NCBI GenBank assembly: GCA_051362555.1
Contig: CM120643.1
Coordinates: 21,146,848 to 21,210,847 of the forward strand
Direction of reading: 5' to 3'
Length of the DNA stretch: 64,000 bases
Source of the DNA: Lingula anatina
Taxonomy: Eukaryota; Animalia; Brachiopoda
The notes under the pieces were generated by a model. The model did no database searches and was not told the origin of the DNA. It was given only the letters and a program-made list of their open reading frames with translations. This document shows positions 1,751-38,787 of the stretch, piece by piece. A program made the position numbers and the translations under genes. Each line of letters begins with the position of its first letter. Positions within the stretch are counted from its first letter, which is position 1.

Positions 1751-2324
1751 GATTGGGTGGAAATTAAATACTTGTTGTATGATTGATTTTCAAAGATATC
1801 ATATACTTCCATTCATTTATTTTCTACTGGTGGCCAGTGATTGAGACACTTATAATTATGCTATGCTAATATTGCATTGTATGCATTCTAAGCTGCTTTT
1901 TTTCAATGAGTATACTAAACTAGTACGAGCTCAGTTTTAAAACAAAAAACAAAAAAACAACAAAAAAAAAAACGAGGTAGGATTTTTGTGAAAAACCAAT
2001 TCTATTAAAGTGGTCTAACAACTTAAGCCCCAAAAAAGACATTATTGTGAAACAGAGTCCTGCCAAGTCGGCGCCGTTCCTAACAGTCCATGTATTTTAT
2101 TCCCCATGGCTACTATGAATACCAGAACTTATTAAATGCGGCTTTTATTTATAGTGTTCCTTTTATAGTCAGTACCATTTAAATGGTTTATTGTCAGTAT
2201 TTCCTATTTTAGATATTATGGCCCGTTGGGAATTTTATAGAATACACCATAAAAGAATTAATTATTTAAAAAAGATTATTATTATTGTTGTTATTTTATT
2301 GTTTTTGTTGTTGTTGTTGAATTA

Positions 2325-2525
2325 CAATACCGCAATGAAAAGAACAACAACAAAATCCGCGAGGAAAAAGATAAGGCCTACCGTAAAAAAGAAGACCGAA
2401 GAAAAGTTTGAGACCAATAACACAAAACAGTTATGGTCAAACATGTCACTTCTTACTCAGTACAAGGGTTCAAAATACGTAATGAATGATGGCGACAAAA
2501 CACTTCCCGATAACTTGAACCAAAA
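2325..2525 (+). mobile_element. LINE ORF2 linker fragment (Rex1-like), opposite orientation to the 1050-1750 piece
   Basis: KKTEEKFETNNTKQLWSNMSLLTQYK...KTLPDNLN resembles the EN-RT linker of Rex1-type ORF2 (recognised from memory). Confidence 0.5.
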
Positions 2526-2901
2526 GTGCATGATTCGCCTATGTCAACAACACGGACTAATGTCGTCTCCACCATGTGTTTACAATCATTACGGTTATAT
2601 GCCAAACAGTTCGACAGTGTTGCAATTTACGTTTAACACGTGTTTCAAGCAAGTTTATCCTCTTTTTGAAATCTTATTTACCAGTCTAAGATCAGAAATG
2701 TTTTAAGTCGCAGGTCCTGCTCAACATAAACGCATTTTCGAAGAAAATCTAATTGTCCCTGTCAAAAGAATGTCAACTGGTACTCGTACTAGAATCAATG
2801 TAACCTTCAATTAATTTTAAGTATTTACATTAAAAATTAGGTCATATTAATAATCTTCTAAAAATCCCATTCATTGTTAACTCTATTTCAGATAGAAAAG
2901 C

Positions 2902-5900
2902 ATGCGAAGATTCCTCTTGAGCATTGCCATCTTTTCAACAATATGGAATAAAGCAGTAGCACCAGTAGGAACCGGTGGTCCACCAGGAACAGGGGGTCCA
3001 CCGGGTACAGGGGGTCCACCAGGCACAGGAGGTCCACCAGGCACAGGTGGTCCACCAGGGACAGGAGGGCCACCAGGAACAGGGGGTCCACCAGGCACAG
3101 GGGGTCCACCAGGAACAGGAGGTCCACCAGGCACAGGAGGTCCACCAGGAACAGGAGGTCCACCTGGAACAGGGGGTCCACCTGGAACAGGAGGGCCACC
3201 AGGCACGGGAGGACCACCAGGAACAGGAGGACCACCAGGAACAGGAGGACCACCAGGAACAGGAGGTCCACCAGGAACAGGAGCTCCACCAGGAACAGGA
3301 GGTCCACCAGGGACGGGAGGTCCACCTGGAACGGGAGGGCCACCAGGCACGGGAGGTCCACCAGGCACGGGAGGTCCACCAGGAACAGGAGGGCCACCAG
3401 GAACAGGAGGTCCACCAGGAACAGGAGGGCCACCAGGAACAGGAGGTCCACCCGGAACAGGAGGTCCACCAGGAACAGGAGGGCCACCAGGAACAGGGGG
3501 TCCACCAGGCACAGGGGGTCCACCAGGAACAGGAGGTCCACCGGGAACAGGAGGGCCACCGGGAACAGGGGGTCCACCAGGCACAGGAGGTCCACCAGGA
3601 ACAGGAGGTCCACCAGGAACGGGAGGTCCACCAGGAACGGGAGGGCCACCAGGCACGGGAGGACCACCAGGCACAGGAGGACCACCAGGAACAGGAGGAC
3701 CGCCAGGAACAGGAGGTCCACCAGGAACAGGAGGTCCACCAGGGACGGGAGGGCCACCAGGAACGGGAGGGCCACCAGGCACAGGAGGTCCACCAGGCAC
3801 AGGAGGTCCACCAGGAACAGGAGGGCCACCAGGAACAGGAGGTCCACCAGGAACAGGAGGGCCACCAGGAACAGGAGGTCCACCCGGAACAGGAGGGCCA
3901 CCAGGAACAGGAGGTCCACCAGGAACGGGAGGACCACCAGGCACGGGAGGTCCACCAGGCACGGGAGGTCCACCTGGAACAGGGGGTCCACCTGGAACAG
4001 GAGGGCCACCAGGCACAGGAGGACCACCAGGAACAGGAGGTCCACCAGGAACAGGAGGTCCACCAGGGACGGGAGGTCCACCAGGAACGGGAGGGCCACC
4101 AGGCACGGGGGGTCCACCAGGAACAGGAGGTCCACCAGGAACAGGAGGTCCACCAGGAACAGGAGGTCCACCAGGAACGGGAGGGCCACCAGGCACGGGA
4201 GGTCCACCAGGCACAGGAGGTCCACCAGGAACAGGAGGTCCACCAGGAACAGGAGGTCCACCAGGAACGGGAGGACCACCAGGCACGGGAGGTCCACCAG
4301 GGACGGGAGGGCCACCAGGCACAGGTGGTCCACCGGGCACAGTAGGTCCACCAGGAACAGGAGGTCCACCAGGAACAGGAGGGCCACCAGGAACAGGGGG
4401 GCCACCAGGCACAGGGGGTCCACCAGGAACGGGAGGACCACCAGGCACGGGAGGTCCACCAGGCACGGGAGGTCCACCTGGAACAGGGGGTCCACCAGGA
4501 ACAGGAGGGCCACCAGGAACAGGAGGTCCACCAGGAACGGGAGGGCCACCAGGCACGGGAGGTCCACCAGGCACAGGAGGTCCACCAGGAACAGGAGGGC
4601 CACCAGGAACAGGAGGGCCACCAGGAACAGGAGGGCCACCAGGAACAGGAGGTCCACCAGGAACAGGAGGTCCACCAGGAACGGGAGGACCACCAGGCAC
4701 GGGAGGTCCACCAGGGACGGGAGGGCCACCAGGCACAGGTGGTCCACCAGGCACAGGAGGTCCACCAGGAACAGGAGGTCCACCAGGAACAGGAGGTCCA
4801 CCAGGAACAGGAGGGCCACCAGGAACAGGGGGGCCACCAGGCACAGGGGGTCCACCAGGAACAGGAGGTCCACCAGGAACAGGAGGTCCACCAGGGACGG
4901 GAGGTCCACCAGGTACTGGAGGCCCACCAGGAACAGGAGGGCCACCAGGAACAGGAGGGCCACCAGGCACGGGAGGTCCACCAGGCACGGGAGGTCCACC
5001 AGGAACGGGAGGGCCACCAGGAACAGGAGGGCCACCAGGAACAGGAGGTCCAACAGGAACGGGAGGGCCACCAGGAACAGGAGGGCCACCAGGAACAGGG
5101 GGTCCACCAGGCACAGGAGGTCCACCAGGAACAGGAGGTCCACCAGGAACGGGAGGGCCACCAGGCACGGGAGGTCCTCCAGGCACGGGAGGTCCACCAG
5201 GAACAGGAGGGCCACCAGGAACAGGAGGGCCACCAGGAACAGGAGGGCCACCAGGAACAGGAGGTCCACCCGGAACAGGAGGTCCACCAGGAACAGGAGG
5301 GCCACCAGGAACAGGGGGTCCACCAGGCACAGGGGGTCCACCGGGAACAGGAGGTCCACCGGGAACAGGAGGGCCACCGGGAACAGGAGGTCCACCAGGA
5401 ACAGGAGGGCCACCAGGAACAGGGGGTCCACCAGGCACAGGGGGTCCACCAGGAACAGGAGGTCCACCGGGAACAGGAGGGCCACCGGGAACAGGGGGTC
5501 CACCAGGCACAGGAGGTCCACCAGGAACAGGAGGTCCACGAGGAACAGGAGGACCACCAGGAACAGGAGGTCCACCAGGAACAGGAGGTCCACCAGGAAC
5601 AGGAGGGCCACCAGGAACAGGGGGTCCACCAGGCACGGGAGGTCCACCAGGAACGGGAGGGCCACCAGGAACAGGAGGTCCACCAGGAACAGGAGGTCCA
5701 CCAGGAACAGGAGGGCCACCAGGAACAGGAGGGCCACCAGGAACAGGGGGTCCACCAGGAACAGGAGGTCCACCAGGAACGGGAGGACCACCAGGCACGG
5801 GAGGTCCACCAGGGACGGGAGGGCCACCAGGCACAGGTGGTCCACCAGGCACAGGAGGTCCACCAGGAACAGGAGGGCCACCAGGAACAGGAGGTCCACC

Positions 5901-8900
5901 AGGAACAGGAGGGCCACCAGGAACAGGGGGTCCACCAGGAACAGGAGGGCCACCAGGAACAGGAGGTCCACCAGGAACAGGAGGGCCACCAGGAACAGGG
6001 GGTCCACCAGGAACAGGAGGTCCACCAGGCACAGGAGGTCCACCAGGAACAGGAGGGCCACCAGGAACAGGGGGGGCACCAGGCACAGGGGGTCCACCAG
6101 GAACAGGAGGTCCACCGGGAACAGGAGGTCCACCTGGAACAGGAGGACCACCAGGAACAGGAGGACCACCAGGAACAGGAGGTCCACCAGGGACGGGAGG
6201 TCCACCAGGAACGGGAGGGCCACCAGGCACGGGAGGTCCACCAGGCACGGGAGGTCCACCAGGCACAGCAGGTCCACCAGGAACAGGAGGGCCACCAGGA
6301 ACAGGAGGGCCACCAGGAACAGGAAGTCCACCAGGAACAGGAGGTCCACCAGGAACGGGAGGACCACCAGGCACGGGAGGTCCACCAGGGACGGGAGGGC
6401 CACCAGGCACAGGTGGTCCACCAGGCACAGGAGGTCCACCAGGAACAGGAGGTCCACCAGGAACAGGAGGTCCACCAGGAACAGGAGGGCCACCAGGAAC
6501 AGGGGGGCCACCAGGCACAGGGGGTCCACCAGGAACAGGAGGTCCACCAGGAACAGGAGGTCCACCAGGGACGGGAGGTCCACCAGGTACTGGAGGCCCA
6601 CCAGGAACAGGAGGGCCACCAGGAACAGGAGGGCCACCAGGCACGGGAGGTCCACCAGGCACGGGAGGTCCACCAGGAACGGGAGGGCCACCAGGAACAG
6701 GAGGGCCACCAGGAACAGGAGGTCCACCAGGAACAGGAGGGCCACCAGGAACAGGAGGGCCACCAGGAACAGGGGGTCCACCAGGCACAGGAGGTCCACC
6801 AGGAACAGGAGGTCCACCAGGAACGGGAGGGCCACCAGGCACGGGAGGTCCTCCAGGCACGGGAGGTCCACCAGGAACAGGAGGGCCACCAGGAACAGGA
6901 GGGCCACCAGGAACAGGAGGGCCACCAGGAACAGGAGGTCCACCCGGAACAGGAGGTCCACCAGGAACAGGAGGGCCACCAGGAACAGGGGGTCCACCAG
7001 GCACAGGGGGTCCACAGGGAACAGGAGGTCCACCGGGAACAGGAGGGCCACCGGGAACAGGAGGTCCACCAGGAACAGGAGGGCCACCAGGAACAGGGGG
7101 TCCACCAGGCACAGGGGGTCCACCAGGAACAGGAGGTCCACCGGGAACAGGAGGGCCACCGGGAACAGGGGGTCCACCAGGCACAGGAGGTCCACCAGGA
7201 ACAGGAGGTCCACCAGGAACAGGAGGACCACCAGGAACAGGAGGTCCACCAGGAACAGGAGGTCCACCAGGAACAGGAGGGCCACCAGGAACAGGGGGTC
7301 CACCAGGCACGGGAGGTCCACCAGGAACGGGAGGGCCACCAGGAACAGGAGGTCCACCAGGAACAGGAGGGCCACCAGGAACAGGAGGGCCACCAGGAAC
7401 AGGAGGGCCACCAGGAACAGGGGGTCCACCAGGAACAGGAGGTCCACCAGGAACGGGAGGACCCCCAGGCACGGGAGGTCCACCAGGGACGGGAGGGCCA
7501 CCAGGCACAGGTGGTCCACCAGGCACAGGAGGTCCACCAGGAACAGGAGGGCCACCAGGAACAGGAGGTCCACCAGGAACAGGAGGGCCACCAGGAACAG
7601 GGGGTCCACCAGGAACAGGAGGGCCACCAGGAACAGGAGGTCCACCAGGAACAGGAGGGCCACCAGGAACAGGGGGTCCACCAGGAACAGGAGGTCCACC
7701 AGGCACAGGAGGTCCACCAGGAACAGGAGGGCCACCAGGAACAGGGGGGGCACCAGGCACAGGGGGTCCACCAGGAACAGGAGGTCCACCGGGAACAGGA
7801 GGTCCACCTGGAACAGGAGGACCACCAGGAACAGGAGGACCACCAGGAACAGGAGGTCCACCAGGGACGGGAGGTCCACCAGGAACGGGAGGGCCACCAG
7901 GCACGGGAGGTCCACCAGGCACGGGAGGTCCACCAGGAACAGGAGGGCCACCAGGAACAGGAGGTCCACCCGGAACAGGAGGTCCACCAGGCACAGGAGG
8001 TCCACCCGGAACAGGAGGGCCACCAGGAACAGGAGGTCCACCAGGAACGGGAGGTCCACCAGGAACAAGAGGTCCACCAGGAACGGGAGGTCCACCTGGA
8101 ACAGGAGGACCACCAGGAACAGGAGGTCCACCGGGCACAGGAGGTCCACCGGGCACAGGAGGTCCACCGGGCACAGGAGCTCCACCAGGAACGGGAGGTC
8201 CACCTGGAACAGGAGGTCCACCAGGAACAGGAGGTCCACCAGGCACAGGAGGACCACCAGGCACAGGAGGTCCACCAGGAACAGGAGGTCCACCTGGAAC
8301 AGGAGGTCCACCTGGAACAGGAGGACCACCAGGAACAGGAGGACCACCAGGAACAGGTGGTCCACCAGGCACAGGAGGTCCATCAGGCACAGGAGGACCA
8401 CCAGGAACAGCAGGACCACCAGGAACAGGAGGTCCACAAGGCACAGGAGGTCCACCTAGCACAGGTGGCCCACCAGGGACAGGAGGACCACCTGGAACGG
8501 GAAGTCCACCAGGAACAGGAGGTCCACCAGGAACAGGTGGTCCACCAGGGACGGGAGGTCCACCAGGAACAGAAGGGCCACCAGGGACAGGAGGGCCACC
8601 AGGAACAGGTGGCCCACCAGCGACAGGGGGGCCACCAGGAACAGGAGGTCCACCAGGCACAGGAGGTCCACCAGGAACAGGAGGTCCACCGGGAACAGGG
8701 GGTCCACCTGGAACAGGAGGTCCACCAGGGACAGGAGGTCCACCAGGCACAGGAGGTCCACCAGGAACAGGAGGACCACCAGGAACAGGAGGTCCACCAG
8801 GAACAGGTGGCCCACCAGGCACAGGAGGGCCACTAGGTCCACCAGGTACAGGAGGTCCACCAGGAACAGGAGGTCCACCAGGAACAGGTGGCCCACCAGG

Positions 8901-9205
8901 GACGGGGGGACCACCAGGTACGGGAGGTCCACCGGGCACAGAAGGTCCACCAGGAACAGGAGGGCCACCAGGAACAGGTGGCCCACCAGGGACGGGAGGT
9001 CCACCAGGTACAGGAGGTCCACCAGGAACAGGAGGACCACCAGGTACAGGTGGTCCACCAGGAACAGGAGGACCACCAGGTACAGGTGGCCCACCAGGGA
9101 CAGGAGGTCCACCTGGGACAGGTGGTCCACCTGGGACGGGAGGACCACCAGGAACAGGAGGACCACCTGGTACAGGCGGTCCACCCGGCCAGAAGGGTCA
9201 GAAAG
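2902..9205 (+). CDS. Giant collagen-like protein, coding exon 1: signal peptide + (Gly-Thr-Gly-Gly-Pro-Pro)n array
   Basis: Acceptor tatttcag|2892; in-frame TAG at 2893-2895 just before ATG 2902. N-terminus [20 protein letters not shown] is signal-peptide-like. Open Gly-X-Y frame 2968-9186 with variation mostly at third codon positions. Ends GQKGQK-G|gtatgt (donor 9206, phase 1). Confidence 0.85.
2968..9186 (+). repeat. 18-bp coding minisatellite (consensus GGAACAGGAGGTCCACCA), ~345.5 units, with a 1674-bp higher-order duplication
   Basis: 6219 bp / 18. Rare variants recur exactly 1674 bp apart: aggtactgga 4911/6585, ggtcct 5173/6847, Gly-Ala-Pro gca 6076/7750. Confidence 0.95.
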
Positions 9206-9889
9206 GTATGTGTATATTCTGATATTTGAAACAGCGTTATTGTGCTCCCCCCCCCCCCCAAAAAAAAAATAATAATAATAATTAATAATAATAATAATAA
9301 GGGAACATATAAAAAGTAAAATATAAAAATTTTAGGAAATTGGCTGGACTGACACTTCAGTTTACACATGAATGCTCCCCAAGTTTTAAGTTACCGTAGT
9401 CGATTAAAAATTATTTTCTGCTAAAAATAATGAGTGACCATAAAAAATCATGGAAATTACGAAGAACGAAAGTGTTCCAGTAGTTGATAAATAAATTTCC
9501 CCCTTTTCTCGCCTTTCCTTGAAATTTGATGGACCTTTGTAGTCTTTAAGAATAAATTTCATCGCCTTTTTTCGGGGATGGCGTGGGGGAGGAAGTCACC
9601 CTGTACAATATTTTTCTGTTTTCTATATCTGATCTAACTCCTTCTCAACGACTAAGGCAACCCCTTCTCAACGACTAACGTAAAACAGCCCATTATATAC
9701 CCGCAGGGTTACAACATTTCTAAAACAGAATGAACGAGTTTTGTTGACTCTTTGCCATCTACGCTGTAGCTCAGGCCAACCTTGTATTTACATGTATCTA
9801 TAAACTATAAATGTGTGTGTTTATTACTTACGAGCAATGAAGTTATCATTACATACAAGTACATGTTGTCAACATCTATGGTGTTGTAG

Positions 9890-10000
9890 GGATGAAAGGA
9901 CTTCCAGGTGGGCCAAAGGGAGAAAAGGGAGAAAAGGGAATGCAAGGGATTCCCGGATTAAACGGATTGGCAGGCCTGAAAGGAATGGCAGGCGTGAAAG
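9890..10000 (+). CDS. Collagen-like gene coding exon 2 (GMKGLPGGPKGEKGEKGMQGIPGLNGLAGLKGMAGVK)
   Basis: ttgtag| acceptor, |gtaaga donor, phase 1-1, continues Gly-X-Y with one imperfection (GGPK). Confidence 0.9.
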
Positions 10001-10796
10001 GTAAGATTGGAGAATGATAAAAGTTATGGATACGTTGCATTAATTGATATACGCGTTCAAATAGCACATGAAAAATGAAACTCATATGCGAAAATACTGC
10101 ATTTAGCAGGACAACACTATATGAGCATTGGATTCAAAGAATGCAGGACAGATCCTTGAACATGCTTAAGAATAAAAGGAAACAGTGGCACATTTTAGGC
10201 GCATGTATCTATTTTGATCAGCAGCGGCTTTCCATGTTACCACCACCAATGTCGTAATACATCATACGCAATACGCGCGTGTTTGTGTGTGCGTGTGTGA
10301 TCGTATTCGTCCCTAAACTAAGAGTCATCAGGTAATTAATGGATGGATTAAGTGGTTAATCTTTTCCAGAAATAGTCTTGTCGTTGTCTTTTGAATAGTC
10401 TCCTGTAGTGAATACAGATGTTTTATTTAGGAGACGTTGTTTCATACACTCGTATAAAAAATTTTGTTTTCACTAGAAAATGTTTTATGAGATAAATTTT
10501 GTTTCACGTGAATACGGACACCTGTGACTCGCGTCCTATTATGAATTGTCTTTGTTTCGTGTGTAGTCTCTAGATAATATCCAGTCTAGACCAGATACAT
10601 GACACTACTATCACCACTGAATGTTCTGATTTTTCAAGACTACATTAACACTTTAATTCCTTACAAAACATCACAGATTTCTATATATGTTGTAACAGGG
10701 TTTCAAAAATAATTAAATTGTATGTTTTTGAACTTTATCGTTCATACTGGATACAAAATGCCTATGTCATCTTGCTTTATCATTCATTTATTTTAG

Positions 10797-10859
10797 GTAT
10801 GAAAGGAAACATGGGCATGAAGGGAAACATGGGCATGAAGGGTTCCAAGGGGTCTCCAG
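10797..10859 (+). CDS. Collagen-like gene coding exon 3 (GMKGNMGMKGNMGMKGSKGSP)
   Basis: ttttag| ... |gtagga; 63 nt = 7 Gly-X-Y triplets, phase 1-1. Confidence 0.9.
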
Positions 10860-10884
10860 GTAGGAAAATGTGGCAACTTTAAAT

Positions 10885-11200
10885 TATTACCTCCTCAAAG
10901 AAGGTTATGGTTTTGGTTCCGCTTGTCTGTTTCTCTTCAGCAAAATTATGGAAAAAAAGTTGTGAACGAAGTTTGATGAAATTGTAAGAAATTGTCGGGG
11001 GGTTACGAAGTAACAAACACTTAGATTTTGGTGTTAAGAATTGATCCTTGAAACAATTGATTTTATTTAATTAATATTAACGAGACTTGAGCTGAGTAAA
11101 TGTTCATTAATCAGAATTGAATAAATAAATAATAAATAATAATGATGAGGGCTGAACTTCATTAGCTGATATCAGCGCTCTTCGAGTGCTTTTCTAATTT
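10885..11200 (+). mobile_element. Non-autonomous Helentron/DINE-1-type (HINE) element in collagen intron
   Basis: Starts ttattacctcctcaaagaaggttatggttt, ends agcgctcttcgagtgcttttctaatt (3' stem-loop); related copy on - strand near 52495-52680. Confidence 0.55.
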
Positions 11201-11254
11201 CATTTTATTAAACTAATCGCTCTAATTTTCTCTTTTTCTTTTTACAGACACGCG

Positions 11255-11290
<36 letters not shown>

Positions 11291-11339
11291 GCACCAAACT
11301 ACCACGGTAAACCTTATCCGTAACTTTATTTGTCATCAG

Positions 11340-11528
11340 GAATGATACTTATGATGCCACCGGCGAGTCAAACGACCGGCTTTACACCGACTGGAACCGG
11401 AGCGGGTTTTGGGACGACCGGAGGTTCCGGAACTACCGGCGGTTCTGGGTTTACCGTTGGGGCCGGAATTTTCACAGGTTTCGCACAAAACAATGCACTG
11501 CTCAATTTATTAGGGATTCAAAATGCTG
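11340..11528 (+). CDS. Collagen-like gene coding exon 4, Gly/Thr/Phe-rich non-collagenous linker
   Basis: catcag| ... |gtgagt, phase 1-1; GMILMMPPASQTTGFTPTGTGAGFGTTGGSGTTGGSGFTVGAGIFTGFAQNNALLNLLGIQNA. Confidence 0.85.
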
Positions 11529-11823
11529 GTGAGTTTATTTGAGATAAAAGGTGTTACTTCACGCATGATAAACTGCATAAATATAAACGGATTTTTGGCT
11601 GTTTAATTGACAACGTATTACAGACATCATTAACAACTTTCCTTAGTTGATTGTTCATTCCCGATCCACTGAATACACGGTATAAGTAGAAACATTATTA
11701 TTTAATTTTATGCCCCCTTTTTGTTTTACGGAGTTAGATGTATTACGCAGATCAAAAATGAGGAATAATATTGAGAGTTACAGGTAAAGTTAAAGGACAC
11801 ATTTACATTCAACGTATTATACC

Positions 11824-11866
<43 letters not shown>

Positions 11867-11867
11867 G

Positions 11868-12008
11868 CCGCAACGGTTTCGTCTCTCTTTAACACTGGGT
11901 TCTTCGGACAAAACTTTGGACTAAACCTGGGACAAACCGTCGGGCAAAACCTTGGAATTAACCTGGGACAAAACTTTGGCCAGACCACACAAGGAACAAA
12001 TATTTTCG
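11868..12008 (+). CDS. Collagen-like gene coding exon 5, GQN(F/L)G repeats; GC donor at 12009 or read-through to TAG at 12019
   Basis: Long poly-T tract + atag| acceptor; AATVSSLFNTGFFGQNFGLNLGQTVGQNLGINLGQNFGQTTQGTNIF-G|gcaagt. Confidence 0.8.
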
Positions 12009-12192
12009 GCAAGTTTTAGTAGATATGTAAAGTGATATGATTTATTGTAATATCTTAATGAAGTTTTAATAAGATTTTAATATTTCTTAATTTTTTATAT
12101 ATTTTGGTAATTGTGTTCTTAAATCTTTGTTTTTAAAAGAAAACAAGTCTACTGAACATTTTAATGGATTTCAAACTTAAATAAATAAATAA

Positions 12193-12194
<2 letters not shown>

Positions 12195-12253
<59 letters not shown>
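12195..12253. repeat. (ATT)n microsatellite
   Basis: Direct observation. Confidence 0.95.
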
Positions 12254-12255
<2 letters not shown>

Positions 12256-12559
12256 ATGAAGAAAATTGTGATACCCCGTTTGAAAATTTTACATCAAAGA
12301 ACAAAGTTATCTTCATTTTGAACACTTAATTGAACCTACCTGTAAATACATGTCGCAGATCAGTACTAAAGTTGTCATTTACAAACCACATTCGAGTCAA
12401 TAAATAATAATGAAACAATAAATAAATGAGTAAATATTCCTATCACATCTCTGGTTCGATGAATTTGTTGTTTTTTCTTGAATTTCCTATTATTTAATTA
12501 TACTGATAGTAACAAATGTCTGGTAACTGGTTTTATTCATTATCATTTATTTTCTCTAG

Positions 12560-12852
12560 GATTCCCCCTATTCAGCAGAATGCGATCTGAGTCTAAGGGT
12601 ATCGCCAAAAATGCTCAGAATATCAGGTCAAATAGAACAGAAGGTGTGGCATCAACAATCACGCTGGCAGTAGGGTTCGTGGCGCTGGTGGTGGTGGTGA
12701 TAGTTGTCATGTGGAGAAGAGGAGCACGGGCTAGGGAGACATTAAAGGAGAAATTACAGAAATTCGAGCAGGAAATATCTGAGTTACGGGAAGACATAGC
12801 TAACAATGAGTTCAGCACAAATGACAGTGACTGCAACGAATCAATAGTGTAG
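12560..12852 (+). CDS. Collagen-like gene putative last exon: transmembrane helix + cytoplasmic coiled coil
   Basis: tttctctag| acceptor in phase 1, matching the upstream GC donor. Encodes hydrophobic VASTITLAVGFVALVVVVIVVMW, then basic RRGARAR and heptad LKEKLQKFEQEISELREDI; TAG at 12852. The joined CDS is 7101 nt, divisible by 3. Confidence 0.75.
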
Positions 12853-13602: not shown

Positions 13603-13959
13603 TGAGCCAGAGCATGCATGCATGCCGAAGTGAAAGTGTCTCCGTTTATGTACAGCCATGACGATTTGTTTAACTGTGCTGAAATGAGTCAGTTATGGTT
13701 AGAGGTTCCATATAACCTCCTGCTGTAAACACTATGGGCTGGAATTCCAAGCAAAAGAGAGAGGTTGTAAATAGAATTTTACAGGCCACAAATGCTAATC
13801 ATAAAATTAACAACCACAGAGCAACCTGTTGTCGCATAAGCTAGAAGACTGCTTCTTAAAAAAAAACGTTTAAATTGTTATCTATAATAGTGGGGTGTGG
13901 TGAATTCGGAGAAAAAGTGCTCAATAGGATTGCGAAGTTTTAGGTGGTGCTGATATCTA

Positions 13960-14198
13960 CACACACTGGACAATAGAAGTGTCACCCCTACTGAACCAAT
14001 ACTTTGGGGGAAATAAATGACTGTGGAATGATATGCTCCTGGTATCATTTTATTAACATCAAATTTCTCAAGAGAAACGATTCTGACTGAGCAATTCAAA
14101 TGTATCGATATTCTGACATTGCTTATATTCCGCCTCTTCAGGCTAATAACTTCGATTACTCTGATTCAGGGGGTGACACTTCTATTGTCCAGTGTGTG
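13960..14198. mobile_element. MITE with ~29-bp TIRs and TA flanks (Tc1/mariner-type)
   Basis: ta|cacacactggacaatagaagtgtcacccc ... ggggtgacacttctattgtccagtgtgtg|ta. Confidence 0.85.
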
Positions 14199-17100
14199 TA
14201 CTTGTACCTAACATTCCGGAGAGAGATACACTTCCCCACGCAGTTCCTCAAACTGTTTTACTGACTCAGAAAATGTGTTTTGGTCGAAAAATATGTCGAG
14301 GCTGAAACATGCGTATTCAAGTTTTTCGCGGGTTGCAAAATGTGTTTGACTGGAAAATGCAGCTCTTCATTGGGTTAGAAATGCGTAGCCTCACATGCAA
14401 CGTGATAACAATCTTCAATCTTAGATCTACCCCGGTAGTATGTTGATGTGTCAGCTTAATTTGATATTTCCTTTGCTTAATTTTGTCAAAGGTCTTACCT
14501 CATGTTATGAAGGGCTTTGTAAGAATCATGGTTAACTCATTAGCCTATTTTACTTAAGGACTAAGCAGCTGAAATAAGCATTTTACACTGAATTAATGAC
14601 CTTTTGATCCTTCAGCTATTGGTAATGTTGAATGTATAGAGTAGTTTTATGTAAATACATAGCACACAGTTATTATACCACAAATGTCACATGTCGGTCA
14701 CGTTATCATGCACGTACAGTGTAGGCCTACCTTGATCCTGGTAGAAAAAATGCCATAAATAATCTCAGAGTTCAAGGTCGTAGGGAAATATTAAAGGAAC
14801 GCACAAATAGATAGGGTGTGAGAACTATGCTTGAACATGTCGATTTCTAAAAGATGTTTATGTTAATATGTTCAATAAGATATACCTGACAAATAAAAGT
14901 GCTTTTAGCGGGAGTCGGAGTCCTCCTTTTTTTTAACTGTATCTTGGGTCTCCACGTCGGACATGCTAGTAAATTTTTCACGAAATGTAGTTCCATCCAC
15001 CATGACACCTACATGTACAGTATATTATTTTGGGCTCGGAAAATTGTGAGTTCTAAAATTGTAACCTTATTCCTTCCATACTAACAAGTACATGTATATA
15101 TGTATGTTCTCATAATTATTTCACAAAAATGGCAACACTAGTACTGTCTGCTATTTGCTTACAAAAAAGAAGCAAAACGCTTTGGACTGTGCATAAGCCT
15201 ATATACCGGTAAATACTATTTGCTGACTGCAACTTCATGAATATGAGTGATTTGTTTTCCGAATTTAACGACAGGTGTATCGGGGAGAAACAGACATTTT
15301 ACATACCTCGGGGCTCAACACATAAACGACACGTAGCAAATACACATTCATATGGATCTGTTTTATTTCACAAAACAACGAAAGCTGAAAATTACACTGA
15401 GCAAAAAATGTTGAAAATATAATATATAAGCAGACGATGCTATTTACGAGGAATCTTAGAGCAATTTACCGCGGCGTCCTTTGTCTTTGCCTTTTTTAAA
15501 ACAAAACTTTGTCCTAAGAAAACATGATTGTTGTCAATGTTTTTGCTCTCACTGGTGACAAAAACATGTCGGATTGTCAACTGCATACATCACATGTACA
15601 TGTACTGCTGTGACCAATATTTGGTCCCTTGTGGTGAAGAGGCCGGGTGGAGACGTTAAAAAAGTAGGGCAGTTTGTGATATTCATTACGCTTGGTTACA
15701 GGTGTGGCGTGATAGACCCGTGCCGTGACGAAACCGTTCTGCACATGCGCATTGAGGGTAGATTGAAAGAAGGGACTTCCGGTATGACAATATCGTCGTA
15801 GGTATTTTTGGAACTATTGACCTTTCAATTCGTAATTCAGTGGTTTTTGCCATGAGAGAGTATGTATTTGATAATCTTACAATAAACTCCACGGAGGAAT
15901 GTTGGAAAAGTTTTATATAAACACCAAAGGAAGCGTGTGACACAGCCCTTATTACTGAGATTGTGATCGTGACTGAACTGTTTTGCTCTGTGATGAGGTT
16001 GTAGTAAGACTCGTAGTATAAATGTTTTCACACTACAATGTTCTTTCAGTTTAGAGTTCAGTAATTGTTGTCGAGAGAAAGTGTGTGTTTGACAACAATA
16101 TAACTTCCTCTATGGGGAAATGTTGGAAATACATATGTAGCTACGTGCTGTAAGTCAACTTTGTCAGTGTCGTGAATGTGACTGCGTTTGCATAAAGTCG
16201 TCGTAAGACTCGTATGAATGCTCATTATATAATGTTAGATATGTTCACAGGTGTGTTACACGTCCAAAGTGAGAAGGTCGATGCATTCCCAACAGTCCAC
16301 CTTCAAGTCAGTTTTTTTAATATCATAAAGCTTTAACACATTTATTTTATTTCATTGTTCAGATTGATTGCCAGAAGAAAATAGCTTAAAATTATAGTGT
16401 GTGTTTGTGTGTATTATGATGATTACTTGTTGTATTTGTTCTATATTTTCACATCACCAAATAAACATTTTGTATTTTGTATCATATACTGTGTTCTTTT
16501 TTAATTTTGCTAATCTTAAACATTAGCACATTTTAAAATTTCTAGAAAACCACATAGGAATGCCCTTAGGATCAGGACACTATAAAGCTAGCTTTTTTTT
16601 ACTAAACCTTTTCATGTGTTAGCTTTACGGTGTATCGCTGATGTGTGCTATATATGAAATCGAGAACTTAAATCTAGAACCTAGGGTACATGGAAATAGT
16701 GCCATCAAAAACTTGAAAAAAAATATAAAAAAATAAGAAATATAACAATTACATTGAAGGATGTTTTATCAACGTCTGCTGGGAACAAAAGTCTAAAACA
16801 TTTTCTGAAATGTAAATTTATCCTTAACATATTGTTTCAAAAAGGTTGAAAACTGTACAAAATTGTGCGCAAAATTAAGAAAATTATGAAAACATTTGAA
16901 TGATGGCTGAAAAGAATTTTTGTTTTTGCTGATTTTGGCCACATTTTGTCATGTTGTAATATGTGTCAAAAAGATGTTTGGTCTATCTTTGGTTTGACCC
17001 TTGCCCTTGCTTTGATATATTCCTGTTTAGAAGTTATTATTATTATTATTATTATTATTTTTTTTTTTGAAAATATGTGAACATTTATCATTCGTGTTGT

Positions 17101-18005: not shown

Positions 18006-21000
18006 CTTATCATCTCTCAGACCAATGCTAAACATTGCCGACTCCATGCAGTCAACTATCCGTCTACGGTAACACAAAATTTTGCTTACACCAGATATAC
18101 CTGTTGGGATAAAGTCCTTGCTGGATTTTCTGCCCTGAAGATATAATATCACAGTTCCCAGTTGCAAAACGGGGTTTTATTTACTCACAATATGCACAAT
18201 ACCATGTTCTACGATGTAATTAAGCACATCAATTCGCGTATGTCTGTGTTTAGCCAACTTTATTGCCGAAAAAGCAGTGCCTGTACTTGTGATGAATTTC
18301 ACATGGCAGAAGTTTGATTTATATAGAATCACTGATGTAAAAACACGCCCAGTTCCTACAGTTAGCAATAGTAAGGACGGAAAGAAACGGGACCTGTCCG
18401 GCATATCGAATAGGCTTAATTGGCAAATACATGCAATGGACGGCCCGAAGCTTTTTAACGCCTGTCACCATATTAAAGAGAACTAAAGGTACAGTTATGG
18501 GTTTCCAACTGATTCACCTGCCCTTCACAGATTTTATGTCTGTAGACTGTGCGTGTTCGGTTTGGGGTCCTGGGTCGATTGTGGAACTACAAATTGCAAA
18601 ATTAGCCTTGCTGTGTTTGCTTTGATATAGAGGAACCGGGATAGCCTATTTTGAACATCTGCGCAGCAGATGACGTCAAACGAGACCTGGATTGGAGCGA
18701 GATTTCACGAGAGGTGGGGTTAAAATCTGCCATTGAAACTTCTCTCGCGGTCAGGCACAAGTCTATATGTTTTAGGATTGCATTGAGTAAAATTTGGCGT
18801 TGTCATGTAATTTGAGATAGAGAAACGCAATGGCGAATTGCTAATGTTGTGTCGTAGGGTGCATTGCAGATAAAGTTAAGCAAGAAAACCAGGAAAATGA
18901 CTATGGATGACGGACACGACTGGCGAGAGAAGTGAAGTGAAGAAAGAGAAGTTGGGCTTGATTAGATTAAAAGGACTAATAATGCCGAAATATTTAAAGT
19001 ACAGATCAGGTCGCAGTATTTTGTAGAAAGAAAGGGACCAACTGCAGACAACTCGCACCCTGCACGTCACTGGCTCCATGGCATCACCGTACAGACCGTA
19101 TCATCAACGGTCGAGGGGCATATTAATAAGTAAGTTTTGTGTGTAGTTTACAGGACACCATGGTTTATTAATGTAATACAGCCCTAGTACTTGTGATTAA
19201 TAGTCTTTTACGGTAACTATATCAGACAAATTTGCTTGTACCATTCCTATCTCCATATAACGTGTACCTGATTATGAAATACTGGTGAACCTTCCACACC
19301 TATTAAGTATACACAATGTTCAGTTGTAACATTCCATGCCGGGTGGTCAGTTATGATAATTGCAATTTGCAAGTAAGGTGGAAATTAGAGTTGGTATTTT
19401 ACAACAACGTTTATCACATAATGATATATATTTCAGAAAACTAAGTGAGTTATTTTTTATTTATTTTAGAGCATGACAGACACAGCACATGTTATTGAAC
19501 CAGGCAAGAACTGCGAGAGTCATGTGGTCAGGATAACCAGATGTTGAAGATTGCTCAGTGTATATTAATCTCTTATGTCCTTAGTTATTATGTTGTTTAC
19601 TTAATTATATCAGGAGTCAACAGATGGCATTTTTTTCTGGGTGTCACTTACAGTATCAGGCATTTTCTTTATTACTTTAAAATGAAATATTTGGTTTTAT
19701 GAATATATATATGTATATAGGCCTATGTATTGTACTGCACTAGTGATTTAATGAAGAAAATTATTTTACTTGCTAGTATCATTCTTATGTTACTGTAGTG
19801 ACTTTTTTTAATAACTATATGACACCTGTTTTTCATATCATTTACTCAGATCAAAATACAAGTTCGCCTGTAATGTGTTTATTTGTTGCATTTGTGTATA
19901 ACTGTCAATAAAATGCAATGATTTTGTGAAAATTTCAACTTATATGTTGTCCATTTTAATACTTTCTTTTGTCATCTTTCCTGTCATTTAAGTCGGATCT
20001 GATCACAATGAAACTTACATTTTGTGAATGCTATCCATTAGTTTCTATAGCATCATTTTCATAAGTAAATAAATGAAGAAAATTAACTTAATGATCAAAC
20101 TCGAGCCTTCTGAATTAGTTACTATAAATTTAGTGAAATTAAATCAAAGATGCAGGCAAGTCTAATGTTCTGATATGGCATCCATCCAATGTGTAAGTTC
20201 AGCTATTTTTCAAGTAAAGAAATCGCTGCTCTACTTCCTTGTGGACTCCATATTCTATCCCCACCTCAAGGCAAATCTCGTAAAATCACGGGGAAACTTG
20301 GTCTTCTCGTTGAGAACCCGGACAGCCTCTATTGATGCAGAATTGTTTAGATCAAATGGCAACTAAAAATTAAAGCCTGACCGTTTCGTAAAGTTAATTA
20401 TATTTTAAGGGGGTGGGGTAAAATGTACATGTAACATATAAATAATAAACTCCCCCCTCCTTCGGTATCTGAAAAAAATATCACACCAATATTCCCCTCT
20501 AGAAATAAGGATTATGACTAGCTAAATCATAGTTCTAAACCATACCAAAGTTTGCCCTCCAAAACACCAAAAATTCTTCGGGGCCCTTGAGCTGGCCCCG
20601 AACCCCACACCAAGGGGGGCATGGTTGGCTTTGCATCCGAGGCTTGTTGTTTCGGACCCCCCCCCTTTCAAATAATCCTGGATCCGCCCCTGCATGTATA
20701 TGTAGTTTTAGACAGTTTAGTAGTAGTAGTCATCCATCCGACGGTTTAGTATACCCCCAAACCGATAATGAGGCAGTTTCATCCACCACAGGAAAAAAAT
20801 TGCACCGGGCTAATCTGTTGAAATGTACAAATACAATGGTGTGCAAAAGCAAATAAGTATAAAAAAGTTGGTATGACTTAATCTAACATCAACTATCTTT
20901 GCTGTTGCTATGATAAATGGTGTCCAAGTGAATTCCATGAAAGAAATATTAATCAAACGAACAAGTTAAGACTCTGCGAATGTTTAAAAGGCAATTAAAT

Positions 21001-21646: not shown

Positions 21647-23100
21647 GTTTCATGCATCAAAACAATAAAGCCCCTGTTACACCGGGCTTCCAACCGCTTT
21701 GATAACGAATTTGCCTACTGTTACCAACCCCTTAGTTGAGGCTTTGCCAATACTGGATAGACAACGTCGATTCCACTCATGCTAATGACTAAATATTGCA
21801 ACCTTTTAGTTTGTTACATATATGTGATAGCGGATCAACATTCGTTTTTCAAGTGGTTGCAAGCCCAGTGAAACAGGGAAACGAAGACTTTTATGGCAAC
21901 AAGATAAACATTCTAATATTACCAAGAGGCATTGATTTATGAAGTTTGATTTCCAGTTTGCGACACACGACAGCGGCGCAATTAGGCTTTTTACAGAATC
22001 CAGTGGTTAGTTTCAGATCGTTTTATCAAGCACGGCAACTTGTAATTAGATTTCTCGACTCCCCGCGGTGAAGTTTTTTCACTCTCGATCTTTTTGGCGA
22101 ATGAATTTTTCAAAATTATGTGCTCCTCTTTTTAGTAAAGAGGAAAACTGCAATGAAATTAATGGAAAATGCAAACTTGACAATGGGTGTCAAAGGAAAA
22201 CTCAACCTTCATACGATTGTATTTCTTAAATAAAATATATATGTTTACAGTTTTGAACAGGGCCTAGATTTTCAAATGAAAAATAATACATTGTCAGATT
22301 AAGTAAAAAATATATATTTTAAGATAAAATAATGTTCACTACACATTACCCACTTATTTGATATTTAATATATTTCAAAGATATACCTAGTTTCAAGAAA
22401 GATTAATACAAATAATCTCTGAAGTTTCAATGTTAAAACATTAAAAACACCTCCATACTAGTACACTCTATATTTTGTACTTAAATACAACAAATTACTC
22501 AAATATCAAACTTTATTGCAATTAACAGGCCTAAAAGATCTGCGCCTATTAATGTAAATGCAAAAGTCTGTTTATGCATATGAGTGAGAAATTCTGTGAA
22601 CTTTGGAAAAATTTGTCAAGCAGCAGCAAGAGATCCCAGTATCCTCTGGATATATTGCATACCTAAAATTGTTCAATTCTAAACAAATTGGTTGCAATCA
22701 GAAAGAATTTAAATATTTCCTGAGAAAATACTACTGTGGTTCCCTTTCAAGGTGTTCATATATCGTATGGTATATCTGCTACCATTGGTACAGGTACAGT
22801 AAGTAGTACCAGGGCTGCAGATTAATAATCTGCACTTTTCTCCAACGCGAGTGGAGAAATGTGCCATAAATAAGCCAGAGAAGTGTGAATGTATAGTGAA
22901 AAATCAATCTGTGGCCTTGATACAGTGTAGGTGTGTAGTTGATTAATGTCTATATAATGTATTTTAACCAAAAATATTACAGGCTAATTTGTGACCAGAC
23001 TTACACTGGAATGTTACCACCATAATAATCTCCAGTGATTACGCGATGCTCAATATGAGGGAATTTGAAAACAACTGTCATATAGTGAACACACACACAA

Positions 23101-23401: not shown

Positions 23402-23872
23402 TTATAAATCTAGTTCACTCTGCCTGCTCATACAGCATCTTGTTCTCCTGGTGCCAGCTGGTGGCGCTGATGACACTCTGATTGTGTTCTGCTTCTCAAA
23501 CTGCTGCCCCTTGGACTTCAAATATAACACCCTGGCCATGTCTTCAAACATCTCTTTCACCCCCTGGCCCGTTTTGTTGGACGTCTTGTACTGTCCACTT
23601 AGCGCCTCATCCCCAAAATTCTGGACGAACATTTCAATGTCCTCGTCTGTGACACAGGACGACCCATGTACCTGCTCATCGCATTTGGTCCCACACAGGA
23701 AAAGGGTGTTTGTCTTGGAGTACATTTTTATTTCGTTTTGGAACTGAGAGAGAACACTGAGGGATCCTTTATCGCTGAGGCTGAAGCACAGTAGCCCGGC
23801 ATGGGCCCCCTTGTAGTAGCTGGCTGTGAGGCTCGATACCCTCTCCATGCCCCCTGTGTCCCACAAGGTTAA
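23402..23872 (-). CDS. Atypical Rab-like small GTPase, coding exon 2
   Basis: atgcag| acceptor, phase 0; LTLWDTGGMERVSSLTASYYKGA (G3), LCGTKCD (G4), YKTSNKTGQGV (G5), C-terminus RRTRCCMSRQSELDL*. Confidence 0.9.
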   Translation of the reverse strand, partial: LTLWDTGGMERVSSLTASYYKGAHAGLLCFSLSDKGSLSVLSQFQNEIKMYSKTNTLFLCGTKCDEQVHGSSCVTDEDIEMFVQNFGDEALSGQYKTSNKTGQGVKEMFEDMARVLYLKSKGQQFEKQNTIRVSSAPPAGTRRTRCCMSRQSELDL

Positions 23873-24070
23873 CTGCATGAATATGAAGAGGAATAAAATT
23901 AAATATAATGGTACAGAGATCCTATGATGGTTGCATCCACAAAGCAAAGTAAAAAAAAGGTCAGGAAGTTACAAAATCTCAGAGCACAAAGTTTATGTAC
24001 ATACATGTAGAACAAGATTCAAAATTATAAGATATGGCAGGATATTGTCTTTTCATCCTATTTCTAATCA

Positions 24071-25211
24071 GATAAGATAAGATAAGATAAGATAAGATAA
24101 GATAAGATAAGATAAGAGTTTATTTAGCCAATTATAAAAATCGGAAATCATTTTCCTTTTGGAGCAATATACAGAGTAAAATAGTAAAATAATACAATAA
24201 ATAAATAAATTAAGAATTTAGTTTTGAGTTCAAATTAAAATGCGTCACTGCACTTGGATAAAAGCTGTTTAAAAAGCGTTTACTGCCTTTAAAAGTTAAA
24301 AGTCTACTGTTGCTTGGTAAAAAAGTAAAAAGAGATGTTGCAGGATGGAAAGAGTCTTTCATGGTGTTGACAATTCTTTTCTCCATTCTGTCTTTAAAAA
24401 TATCATCCAGCTTGGGGAGATCCTGCCCAATAATCCTGCTTGCAGTTTTTACAACATTCGTTAATTTCTTCCTTTCCTCCCCAGCTGTTCCGCTATACCA
24501 TATTATAATTCCGTACGCTAGAATGCTTTCAATTACACACCTGTAAAAATTGCCTAAAATAGGCACGCTATCAGTAAAAGTTCTCAATGATCTTAAAAAA
24601 TACAGTCTTTGCCGTGCCTTCTTTACACTCTTTGCGGTGTTATCTTTCCAATTCAATTTACTGTTAAGGTGTATACCAAGTAGTTTAAATTCCTCTACTC
24701 TACTAACTTCAACATTACCAATGGTGAGTGGTACCTTTACATTCTGATTCCTTCTAAAATCCACTATCATTTCTTTGGTTTTAGCTACGTTCAAGATAAG
24801 ATCATTACTCTTGCACCAGCTTAACACCGACTCAACAGATTCTCTATATGTACTCTCGTTATTATCAGTAACTAGCCCCACAAGCGTAGTATCATCCGCA
24901 AATTTCATGAGAAAAGTCCCGTCGCTTACACCAGTACAATCATAGGTAAAAAGGGAGTAAAGACAAGGTGAAAGGACGCATCCCTGTGGTGCACCAGTAT
25001 TTAAGACTGTTGTTTTTGAGCTAAAAGAGCCGACTTTAACAGATTGTCTTCTATCTAAAAGAAAGTCTAAAATCCAGTCACAAATAAAAACAGGTAGCTT
25101 AAGATGGTTTAAAAGTTTCAGATATAGTTTTTTTGGCACAATTGTGTTAAAAGCTGAACTGTAGTCAATAAATAAAATCCTTGCATAAGAATTTTTGTTA
25201 TCTAAGTGTTG
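24071..25211 (-). mobile_element. Young 5'-truncated LINE (Rex1/Babar-like) in the Rab-like intron
   Basis: Open RT frame with [10 protein letters not shown] and KFADD, stop at 24210; (TCTTA)n 3' tail at 24071-24116; 6-bp TSD taatca at 24065-24070 and 25212-25217. Confidence 0.92.
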
Positions 25212-26359
25212 TAATCATAATTAACAGTAAAAAGGACAATAATACATAATGTGCTTTCCCCATAAAATCAATTAAAATTGTGTAATATTGTAACATTTGC
25301 TTTCATTCATGTTTACAAGTATTACTATCCATACAACCCTTGCATTACCACCATAACATTCAATATGTGAAATAACAAGGCAGCAAAGCTGTCAAATGTA
25401 CAGACAAAAAACAGAATATAAAGATGCAAAAGAGGTCATTTTGTCAATTTTGATGCAATAATAAATAATGCTTATAATGGCACTGTCAATCAACACTGAA
25501 TTTTAATCATGCACAACAGGTAACATGCTCAATAACAGGAGCAGATCCAGAGGTATTTTCTGACAGTATTCCAAACTATATTTGTTGATCCATCCTACAC
25601 TTTTGATGGTCTTCCAACAGAAAAAAATTGATACCAGTCAATGTAAACTCTAAAATCTGACCGTCATCTGAAAGACCCAGAAGACGGCCTCAATCCACCC
25701 CTGCAATAAGATTATAGGTTCTGGACCATGAGAGTTCAAATTCACATAATGAAAATCCCAATATTTGAAAAATGTTGACAGTGCATAAAATAATGTTACA
25801 TAATGTTTAAAGACATAAAAACCTATGCAACTGCTTATGTGGAAATACAGAAAATCTGAAGAGCTTCAGGTGGATGGGAGTTGAAAATGCCAGTGTTTAG
25901 AAAAAAATTAAAAAGAAAACACAAATAAAAAAAAAATATTCCAGTAAAGCTGCTATTCAAACTTTTAATCTTGCTGTATTAACATGATATGAATAATCCC
26001 AATGTGTTTGAGGATAATAAGGCACTGTTATTCATCTATAGCATTAATGTTGGCATTGCACAAATTTTTTTTCTTTTGTAAACTTATTTGCAATATTAAA
26101 CAACATTTACCTGCATAATTAGCACCAATCCCTAATTATGTGACACAGTTAAGAGAGCTTAACCTATAAGACTTGAATGGGAAATCTCAACGTGTGTTTT
26201 ATGTAATCTTATTTAATGGGCACTTGAAAATCAATTAGGCAAGTAATTTTATAGCTCTGAATTTAGCTAGTGATTATCCCAAGGGACAATGACCACCATC
26301 CATAAACAGTAGCCCCATATAGCACTCCATAGAGCTGCCAAAACAGAAAACAATCACAC

Positions 26360-38679: not shown

Positions 38680-38785
38680 TTAAAGTTGCGAGAGTCAGTT
38701 CACTGGCACGGTTTACAGAGGCGCTTGCAGGCAGGTTATAATTAACTTCCTGTGATTATTTATAATATATACTGTACATACATCA

Positions 38786-38787
<2 letters not shown>

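What the first reader, a model, noticed from the sequence alone, without database searches (positions are those of the whole stretch)
2902..12852. Giant type-I membrane-anchored collagen-like protein built from a (Gly-Thr-Gly-Gly-Pro-Pro)x~345 array
Seen: six phase-1-compatible exons join into 2366 aa. The order is signal-like N-terminus, ~695 in-register Gly-X-Y triplets, short Lys/Met-rich collagen exons, a low-complexity linker, one TM helix followed by basic residues, and a cytoplasmic heptad repeat. Known: vertebrate membrane collagens (XIII, XVII, XXIII, XXV) are type II, fibrillar collagens have ~338 triplets split over many small exons, and most collagens carry COLFI/NC1/C1q-type trimerisation domains. 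None of those domains is visible here. Inference: an unrecognised cell-surface filament of ~600 nm (at ~0.29 nm per residue), 50% Gly with a Thr every 6 residues, possibly for cuticle, glycocalyx, adhesion or egg coat.
Basis: partly seen in the sequence, partly recalled or inferred. Interest (0 to 1): 0.92.

Follow-up and report, generated by a model that had tools for sequence, protein, structure and literature searches.

The report
Giant brachiopod collagen with reversed anchor
A lamp-shell (Lingula-type brachiopod) locus holds about 345 copies of one six-residue collagen-like unit whose protein sequence is kept by selection, and its six predicted exons would give a chain that likely forms a roughly 600-nm rod held in the cell membrane by its C-terminal end, the opposite way round to the membrane collagens described in animals.

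Summary
The host is Lingula anatina or very close (neighbouring Rab exon 99% identical). The array is coding: 436 third-position differences against 20 at first or second positions. Helix-core Gly is replaced only by Ala or Ser (6 of 6). Exon 4 shows pN/pS about 0.04 against a diverged DNA run. No relative of the membrane exon was found in five searches. Not shown: splicing and expression. Six RNA runs gave no junction reads and no exon 2-5 coverage, although a neighbouring gene was covered in the four runs that included it. Best reading: a lineage-specific type I membrane collagen that trimerises at its C-terminal anchor and zips C-to-N into an uncharged surface filament. It is not a MACIT, fibrillar or EGF shell collagen. 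Its layout resembles streptococcal Scl1 by convergence.

The parts
2870..2891 (+). Strong splice acceptor 10 nt before the ATG, implying an upstream non-coding exon that was not located; an in-frame TAG lies at 2893-2895
   Evidence: pyrimidine fraction 0.74, no competing AG; ORF 2896-9222
2902..9205 (+). Exon 1 (6304 nt): signal-like peptide plus the whole array, ending GQK-GQK-G|
2902..2961 (+). Predicted signal peptide (MRR, 12-residue hydrophobic core, A-V-A); Pro at +1 makes the cleavage site uncertain
   Evidence: sequence inspection, KD11 peak 2.38; SignalP not run
2968..9186 (+). (Gly-Thr-Gly-Gly-Pro-Pro) x ~345 array, 691 triplets, with no Lys, Cys, Asp or aromatic residue
4600..7934 (+). 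Recent 1674-nt tandem duplication inside the array (7 differences inside the copies: 4 non-synonymous, 3 synonymous)
9890..10000 (+). Exon 2: Lys/Glu-rich collagen (GPK GEK GEK GMQ ...), with one register break
   Evidence: Pfam Collagen E 2.1e-5, 24.6 bits, below the 27.2 cut-off
10797..10859 (+). Exon 3: seven collagen triplets (GMK GNM ...)
11340..11528 (+). Exon 4: Gly/Thr/Phe-rich linker, under purifying selection
   Evidence: 10 of 11 differences in DNA run X8 at third positions; pN/pS 0.036
11868..12008 (+). Exon 5: Gly/Gln/Asn-rich linker with a period-4 repeat (GQNF, GLNL, GQTV ...); GC donor
12560..12852 (+). Exon 6: juxtamembrane stalk, membrane helix and cytosolic tail, stop at 12850-12852
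12625..12636 (+). R-S-N-R, a minimal RXXR convertase-type site 6 residues before the membrane helix (overlaps an NRT sequon)
   Evidence: motif scan; RXXR consensus as in PMC4678570
12655..12714 (+). Predicted transmembrane helix, followed by RRGARAR
   Evidence: KD19 2.98, highest in the chain; AF2 helix, pLDDT 87-94
12742..12807 (+). Cytosolic heptad repeat (L, L, F, I, L, I, N at alternating d/a positions)
   Evidence: register print; AF2 helix to residue 82, pLDDT 76-85
12838..12849 (+). C-terminal E-S-I-V, matching the class I PDZ-binding consensus (consensus recalled, not from a call)

Best explanation
The locus holds a selectively maintained collagen-like coding array and five further exons that would, if spliced as predicted, give a type I membrane protein whose three chains likely gather at the C-terminal membrane helix and cytosolic coiled coil and then likely zip C-to-N into a roughly 610-nm, almost uncharged collagen rod on the cell surface. 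Shown: the reading frame, the triplet register, selection on the array and on exon 4, and the order of motifs. Inferred: (1) the signal peptide sends the 2280-residue ectodomain into the ER; (2) membrane helix plus heptad repeat replace the missing C-propeptide as trimerisation device; (3) the short Lys/Glu-rich collagen exons set chain register, which the monotonous array cannot do; (4) Y-position prolines are hydroxylated, offsetting the weak Gly-Thr-Gly triplets, and the ~345 Thr per chain may carry O-glycans; (5) ESIV ties the base to a PDZ scaffold, and RSNR may allow shedding. With no Lys, Cys or charge pattern along 2070 residues the rod should not cross-link or pack into banded fibrils, so it most likely acts as a long spacer or tether in an apical coat (cuticle, larval or egg surface) made in a tissue or stage that the six RNA runs did not sample.
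For: Open 2366-aa frame with five phase-1 introns; exons 2-5 recovered by an unbiased scan. Array: differences from consensus 436 at codon position 3, 12 at position 2, 8 at position 1; 18 of 18 possible third-position variants occur, up to 92 copies, against 14 of 36 first/second-position variants, none above 2 copies. Triple-helix signature: core Gly replaced only by Ala/Ser, 6 of 6 (chance about 0.0002-0.0003 from codon use), while Y-position Gly is replaced by Val, Arg, Glu in 4 of 6 (Fisher p 0.03); small residues are the least damaging core substitutions (PMC10765305 passages). The one length irregularity in the array is a whole triplet. All 12 Lys of the C-terminal collagen part are in Y. 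Exon 4 against DNA run X8: pS 0.20, pN 0.007, p 7e-6; the other two + frames give 10 of 10 and 9 of 11 amino-acid changes. Type I signals: basic cluster after the helix and terminal ESIV. C-to-N zippering is the rule in animal collagens; a membrane domain can replace the C-propeptide (Bulleid 1997, title only); Gly-rich tracts are tolerated in a clamped triple helix (PMC13673506 abstract and introduction). Trace sense-strand RNA at the end of exon 1 (X15) and in the exon-6/3' bin (X12, X18; depth under 0.7).
Against: No junction read and zero depth on exons 2-5 in 6 of 6 RNA runs laid (6 of the 9 listed; 6-30% of each read), while the neighbouring Rab exon had depth 3-23 in the 4 runs that included it. 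No annotated protein with exon 6 was found although L. anatina proteins are in the searched collections. The trace reads are 1-3 reads and could be cross-mapping. The two copies of the recent 1674-nt duplication differ by 4 non-synonymous and 3 synonymous changes, compatible with neutrality at single sites. Gly in Y is rare in human fibrillar collagens (0.7%) but fills half of the Y positions here, so stability is open. Pro at +1 of the likely signal cleavage site; two N-glycosylation sequons lie in the supposed cytosolic tail. Direct selection evidence covers exons 1 and 4 only.
Confidence: 0.58

Rival explanations
1. Same gene and topology, but the array does not form a stable triple helix; it is a disordered Gly/Pro elastomer or mucin-like O-glycosylated tether, and only the short Lys-rich part is helical.
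For: Array is 82% Gly+Pro with 17% Thr; Gly in Y is rare in collagens; Pfam Collagen does not hit two array pieces; the single-chain AF2 model is low-confidence (pLDDT 47.7), which is also expected for one collagen strand.
Against: Ala/Ser-only replacement of core Gly and free replacement of Y-Gly; whole-triplet indel; in-register run into typical GEK/GMK collagen triplets.
Confidence: 0.15
2. The array is mainly made as a secreted collagen: either exon 1 reads into intron 1 (ORF ends GQK-GMCIF at 9222) or it splices only to exons 2-3, and the membrane exon is a minor isoform or belongs to another transcript.
For: No junction read joins any exons; ORF 2896-9222 is complete by itself; exon-6 selection was not measured.
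Against: All five introns keep phase 1; exon 4 has no start or partner of its own yet is under selection in the frame the chain needs; without exons 4-6 the chain has no trimerisation device.
Confidence: 0.15
3. A recently silenced gene, or a coding minisatellite whose size is inflated by the assembly (false 1674-nt duplication).
For: Near-zero RNA in 6 runs; absent from protein collections; near-neutral recent differences.
Against: No stop or frameshift in 7.1 kb; selection on exon 4 across a lineage with pS 0.2; array-like contigs at very high summed depth in DNA runs X8 and X9; removing one 1674-nt copy still leaves about 250 units.
Confidence: 0.12

Closest known systems
MACITs (collagens XIII, XXIII, XXV, COL-99), collagen XVII, colmedins, ectodysplasin A, class A scavenger receptors
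   Same: One membrane helix, collagenous ectodomain, a coiled coil beside the membrane, an RXXR site near the membrane (PMC4678570, PMC7848082 passages).
   Different: All are described as type II (N-terminus inside, coiled coil outside); here the order is reversed, with the coil on the predicted cytosolic side. Collagen XIII ectodomain is about 150 nm against about 610 nm predicted here; no sequence relationship found.
Streptococcal collagen-like proteins Scl1/Scl2
   Same: Signal sequence, collagen-like stalk, linker, C-terminal wall/membrane anchor (PMC5005324 passages).
   Different: Bacterial, with an N-terminal variable domain and an LPATG anchor, folding N-to-C; here no head domain, a spliced animal gene and a cytosolic tail. 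Convergent layout, not homology.
Annelid cuticle collagens (e.g. Riftia pachyptila)
   Same: Very long triple helix; Riftia's is rich in glycosylated Thr (PMC11766948 passage).
   Different: They have globular domains and Thr in the stabilising position (title of Mann 1996; Y position, recalled); here Thr is in X, there is no globular domain, and there is a membrane anchor.
Lingula EGF-domain shell matrix collagens
   Same: Same animal, Gly-rich collagen (PMC4595640, PMC13425148).
   Different: About 770-800 aa or 1548 aa with EGF domains; this chain has one Cys in total and no EGF; its motifs are not in the supplements searched.
Engineered membrane-anchored procollagen (Bulleid et al. 1997)
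   Same: C-terminal membrane domain in place of the C-propeptide supports trimer and helix formation (title only).
   Different: Artificial construct; this would be a natural counterpart.

Membership tests
Collagen triple-helix proteins | Gly at every third residue over a long stretch | tested here: met
   687 of 693 triplets in exon 1; runs of 337, 205, 67 triplets
Collagen triple-helix proteins | Core Gly tolerates only small substitutions | tested here: met
   6 of 6 Ala/Ser, expected fraction about 0.25
Collagen triple-helix proteins | Three chains physically form a triple helix; prolines hydroxylated | not testable with these tools
MACIT / animal transmembrane collagens | Type II topology: N-terminal cytosolic domain and membrane helix before the collagen | tested here: not met
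   only strong hydrophobic helix is at aa 2301-2320, after the collagen
MACIT / animal transmembrane collagens | Extracellular coiled coil between membrane and first collagen domain | tested here: not met
   heptads lie on the far side of the helix from the collagen
MACIT / animal transmembrane collagens | Furin-type RXXR site next to the membrane | tested here: inconclusive
   minimal RSNR present; cleavage not tested
Fibrillar collagens | C-terminal COLFI propeptide | tested here: not met
   no Pfam family above cut-off for exons 4, 5, 6; stop at 12850
Fibrillar collagens | Varied ~338-triplet helix split over many small exons, with cross-link Lys (recalled) | tested here: not met
   693 triplets in one exon, no Lys in the array
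Lingula EGF shell collagens | EGF domain(s) | tested here: not met
   one Cys in 2366 aa; no EGF hit
Lingula EGF shell collagens | Present in the shell proteome | tested here: inconclusive
   0 of 6 tryptic-type motifs in the 2026 supplement; those searches rely on gene models that may lack this gene
Scl1/Scl2-type bacterial collagen-like proteins | N-terminal variable domain and LPXTG wall anchor | tested here: not met
   array starts 2 residues after the predicted signal peptide; no such anchor in the C-terminal sequence
Annelid cuticle collagens | Globular terminal domain and Thr in the helix-stabilising position | tested here: not met
   Thr in X in the GT- triplets; no globular domain found

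The most novel reading that the evidence does not exclude
The first natural animal collagen anchored by its C-terminus: a type I membrane protein in which a membrane helix and a cytosolic coiled coil do the job of the C-propeptide, zipping a single-exon, two-triplet homopolymer into a 600-nm glycosylated filament that is pinned to PDZ scaffolds and can be shed as a headless giant cuticle-type collagen.
Probability: 0.4. Interest if true: 0.8.

Novelty: new variant of a known kind. Interest (0 to 1): 0.62.

Why it matters
The review read here describes all animal membrane collagens and collagen-like membrane proteins as type II. A type I one would show a second natural way to nucleate a triple helix (from the membrane and cytosol, C-to-N), so far known to me only from an engineered construct. 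A (GTG-GPP)n homopolymer is also a ready test of how weak a triplet a long helix can carry and of what Thr in X does, and a simple biomaterial sequence. For brachiopod biology it adds a large, apparently unannotated matrix gene that repeat-blind assemblies and Lys/Arg-dependent proteomics would tend to miss.

Tried and rejected
No whole genome is held, so paralogues could not be sought. Exon-6 peptide: no hit among longer proteins (0 of 225 candidates); phmmer over 1.84 billion representatives gave 1 hit, P0131, E 1e-4, an unrelated repetitive coiled coil, rejected; ESM Atlas best 0.78, unnamed; PDB 1 hit at E 0.39; metagenome contigs none; 13 Pfam hits, all below cut-off and generic TM/coil. 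Exon-1 search returned ordinary collagens (the 120 listed are mostly type VII, 30-42% identity), compositional matches only; Atlas no usable hit; prokaryote genome scan confirmed none of 602 pattern matches, uninformative for a low-complexity query. No RNA holder was listed by the run search. The trimer prediction of the exon-6 helix was not available; nothing was folded. AF2 on 123 array residues as a monomer was uninformative; no fold search was run on a single helix. An alternative phase-1 acceptor at the array start (2969), which would drop the signal peptide, was rejected: pyrimidine fraction 0.35 and 4 competing AGs. A type II reading of exon 6 was rejected: no strong donor follows the coil before the stop. 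Long opposite-strand and shifted ORFs over the array are by-products; only the proposed frame puts the variation at third positions. Paper searches for a type I or C-terminally anchored collagen and for GTGGPP (18 papers, by their titles mammalian collagen fragments and materials) found no description; the library lacks most subscription journals. Earlier scan findings held nothing on this locus.

Full report
Observation. Exons 2902-9205, 9890-10000, 10797-10859, 11340-11528, 11868-12008 and 12560-12852 join through five phase-1 introns into 2366 codons and a stop. Intron 5 uses a GC donor. The array is an 18-nt repeat of 346 copies at 2967-9185. Exon 1 carries 693 triplets from residue 23; 687 start with Gly. 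A scan that knew nothing of the model found 8 open phase-1/phase-1 exon candidates between 9240 and 12500. Exons 2-5 are four of them; three others overlap exon 3 or 4 or adjoin exon 3, and one is an (AC)n run. The only Gly-X-Y runs of five or more triplets outside the array, in six frames of 64 kb, lie in exons 2-4.

Organism. No genome is held. The last exon of the neighbouring Rab-like gene is 99% identical to Lingula anatina XP_013405678, and the next hits are 42-48%. The window is therefore from L. anatina or a very close lingulid brachiopod.

The array is coding. Against the unit consensus there are 436 differences at codon position 3, 12 at position 2 and 8 at position 1. These counts are not independent, because the array grows by duplication, so I also counted variant types: all 18 possible third-position variants occur, at up to 92 copies, while 14 of 36 possible first/second-position variants occur, never above two copies. 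Against this, the two copies of a recent 1674-nt duplication differ by 4 non-synonymous and 3 synonymous changes, close to neutral; new single changes are evidently tolerated for a while, or some are sequence errors.

It behaves like a triple helix. Helix-core Gly is replaced six times, each time by Ala or Ser; codon use predicts about 25% for each, about 0.0002-0.0003 for all six. The Y-position Gly is replaced by Val, Arg or Glu in 4 of 6 cases (Fisher p 0.03). Small residues are the least damaging core substitutions (PMC10765305, passages). The one break in the GTG/GPP alternation is a whole triplet. The array runs in register into GQK/GMK/GEK triplets with all 12 Lys in Y (11 counted, plus the GPK at the register break). 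Stability is open: Gly fills half of the Y positions, against 0.7% in human fibrillar collagens (PMC13673506, passage), though even a Gly6 tract folds when clamped (same paper, abstract and introduction).

The downstream exons. DNA run X8 is a diverged relative. In exon 4, 10 of its 11 differences are at third positions and 9 of 10 affected codons are silent: pS 0.20, pN 0.007, p 7e-6; the other two + frames give 10 of 10 and 9 of 11 amino-acid changes. This rests on one contig. Exons 2, 3, 5 and 6 were not covered well enough to test. Exon 6 holds the only strong hydrophobic helix (KD19 2.98), six basic residues behind it, an a/d heptad pattern over 22 residues and the C-terminus ESIV, which fits the class I PDZ-binding consensus (recalled). 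AlphaFold2 on the single sequence gives one helix over residues 9-82, confident through the membrane and heptad parts. RSNR lies just outside the helix. Two sequons in the tail and Pro after the likely signal cleavage site are small points against the simple type I picture.

Expression is not shown. Six of nine listed RNA runs were laid, 6-30% of each. None gave a junction read or depth on exons 2-5. In one search the Rab exon served as control (depth about 3-23), so the animal is in those four runs; one search had no control. A few reads lie at the end of exon 1 (X15, X16, X18) and in the exon-6/3' bin (X12, X18), in the sense direction in the stranded runs; they are too few to rely on. Tissues of these runs are unknown to me. 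The gene is silent or nearly so there.

Relatives. None was found for exon 6, although L. anatina proteins are in the collections, so the gene seems unannotated. That supports novelty and also counts against broad expression, since the 2015 gene models used embryo and adult RNA (PMC4595640, passages). The exon-1 search returned only generic collagens. The motif GTGGPP is absent from the supplements of both Lingula shell-proteome papers, and six exon 2, 3 and 6 motifs are absent from the 2026 one.

How it most likely works. A homopolymeric collagen chain has no register and, here, no propeptide. Animal helices zip from a C-terminal nucleus, and a membrane domain can replace the C-propeptide (Bulleid 1997, title only). 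I infer that the membrane helix and cytosolic coil gather three chains, the charged exon 2-3 triplets fix the stagger, and the helix propagates 2140 residues to the N-terminus, 612-621 nm. With no Lys, Cys or charge pattern in the array it should neither cross-link nor band, which suits a long spacer or tether in a surface coat, perhaps O-glycosylated on Thr and shed at RSNR. I give this 0.58; an elastomeric or mucin-like array 0.15; a mainly secreted form 0.15; a silenced or inflated locus 0.12.

Comparison. MACITs, collagen XVII, colmedins, ectodysplasin and class A scavenger receptors are all described as type II (PMC7848082 and PMC4678570, passages); this protein fails that test. It lacks COLFI and EGF domains, so it is neither a fibrillar collagen nor one of the Lingula shell collagens. 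Its layout is nearest to streptococcal Scl1 (PMC5005324, passages), minus the head domain, and its length and Thr content recall annelid cuticle collagens (PMC11766948, passage). PMC9057340 was seen as abstract only. Searches for a described type I membrane collagen or a GTGGPP array found none, within a library that lacks most subscription journals.

Verdict. A real, selected, apparently undescribed collagen-like gene with reversed membrane topology on paper; new variant of a known kind; interest 0.62, rising to about 0.8 if the full transcript and trimer are shown.

Noticed in passing
window 23402-28730 (-): Rab-like gene, 99% identical to L. anatina XP_013405678, transcribed in four RNA runs; a non-LTR reverse-transcriptase fragment (24210-25214, RVT_1) and a 161-nt x4 tandem repeat (27515-28169) lie in its intron.
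   Followed up: partly
window 31730-43220: Broken LTR retrotransposon: 126-nt LTRs 98% alike, gag/protease-like ORF 31807-33336, about 6.8 kb of unrelated sequence inserted, RT piece on + (40123-40734), RNase H and integrase zinc finger on - (40672-41913, an internal inversion), integrase core on + (41757-42245).
   Followed up: no
window 31629-31704 (-): tRNA-Thr(TGT)-like gene 25 nt from the left LTR; a tRNA-adjacent insertion or a tRNA-derived repeat.
   Followed up: no
window 44390-51026 (+): Multi-exon glycosyltransferase family 2 gene (Pfam hit at 45755-46132); it reads like DPM1 (name recalled, not from a call).
   Followed up: no
window 61027-62064 (-) and 60540-60760 (-): Cytochrome P450 exons (Pfam p450 E 7e-81 for the long one).
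   Followed up: no
window 18677-20185: Plus-strand RNA in run X15 (depth up to 45, reads with indels against the window); an unannotated transcript or a transcribed repeat.
   Followed up: no
window 13950-14200, 20470-20700, 22880-22930: Short dispersed repeats that collect many RNA reads with loose ends from elsewhere in the genome.
   Followed up: no
window 9206-9222: Read-through of intron 1 would end the array protein in GQK-GMCIF, a possible unanchored form with a terminal Cys (ORF end; sequence inspection).
   Followed up: no
window 2155-2706 (+): 183-codon open stretch upstream of the gene with a microsatellite-derived hydrophobic run; it looks like a retroelement remnant (recalled resemblance; no Pfam hit above cut-off).
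   Followed up: no
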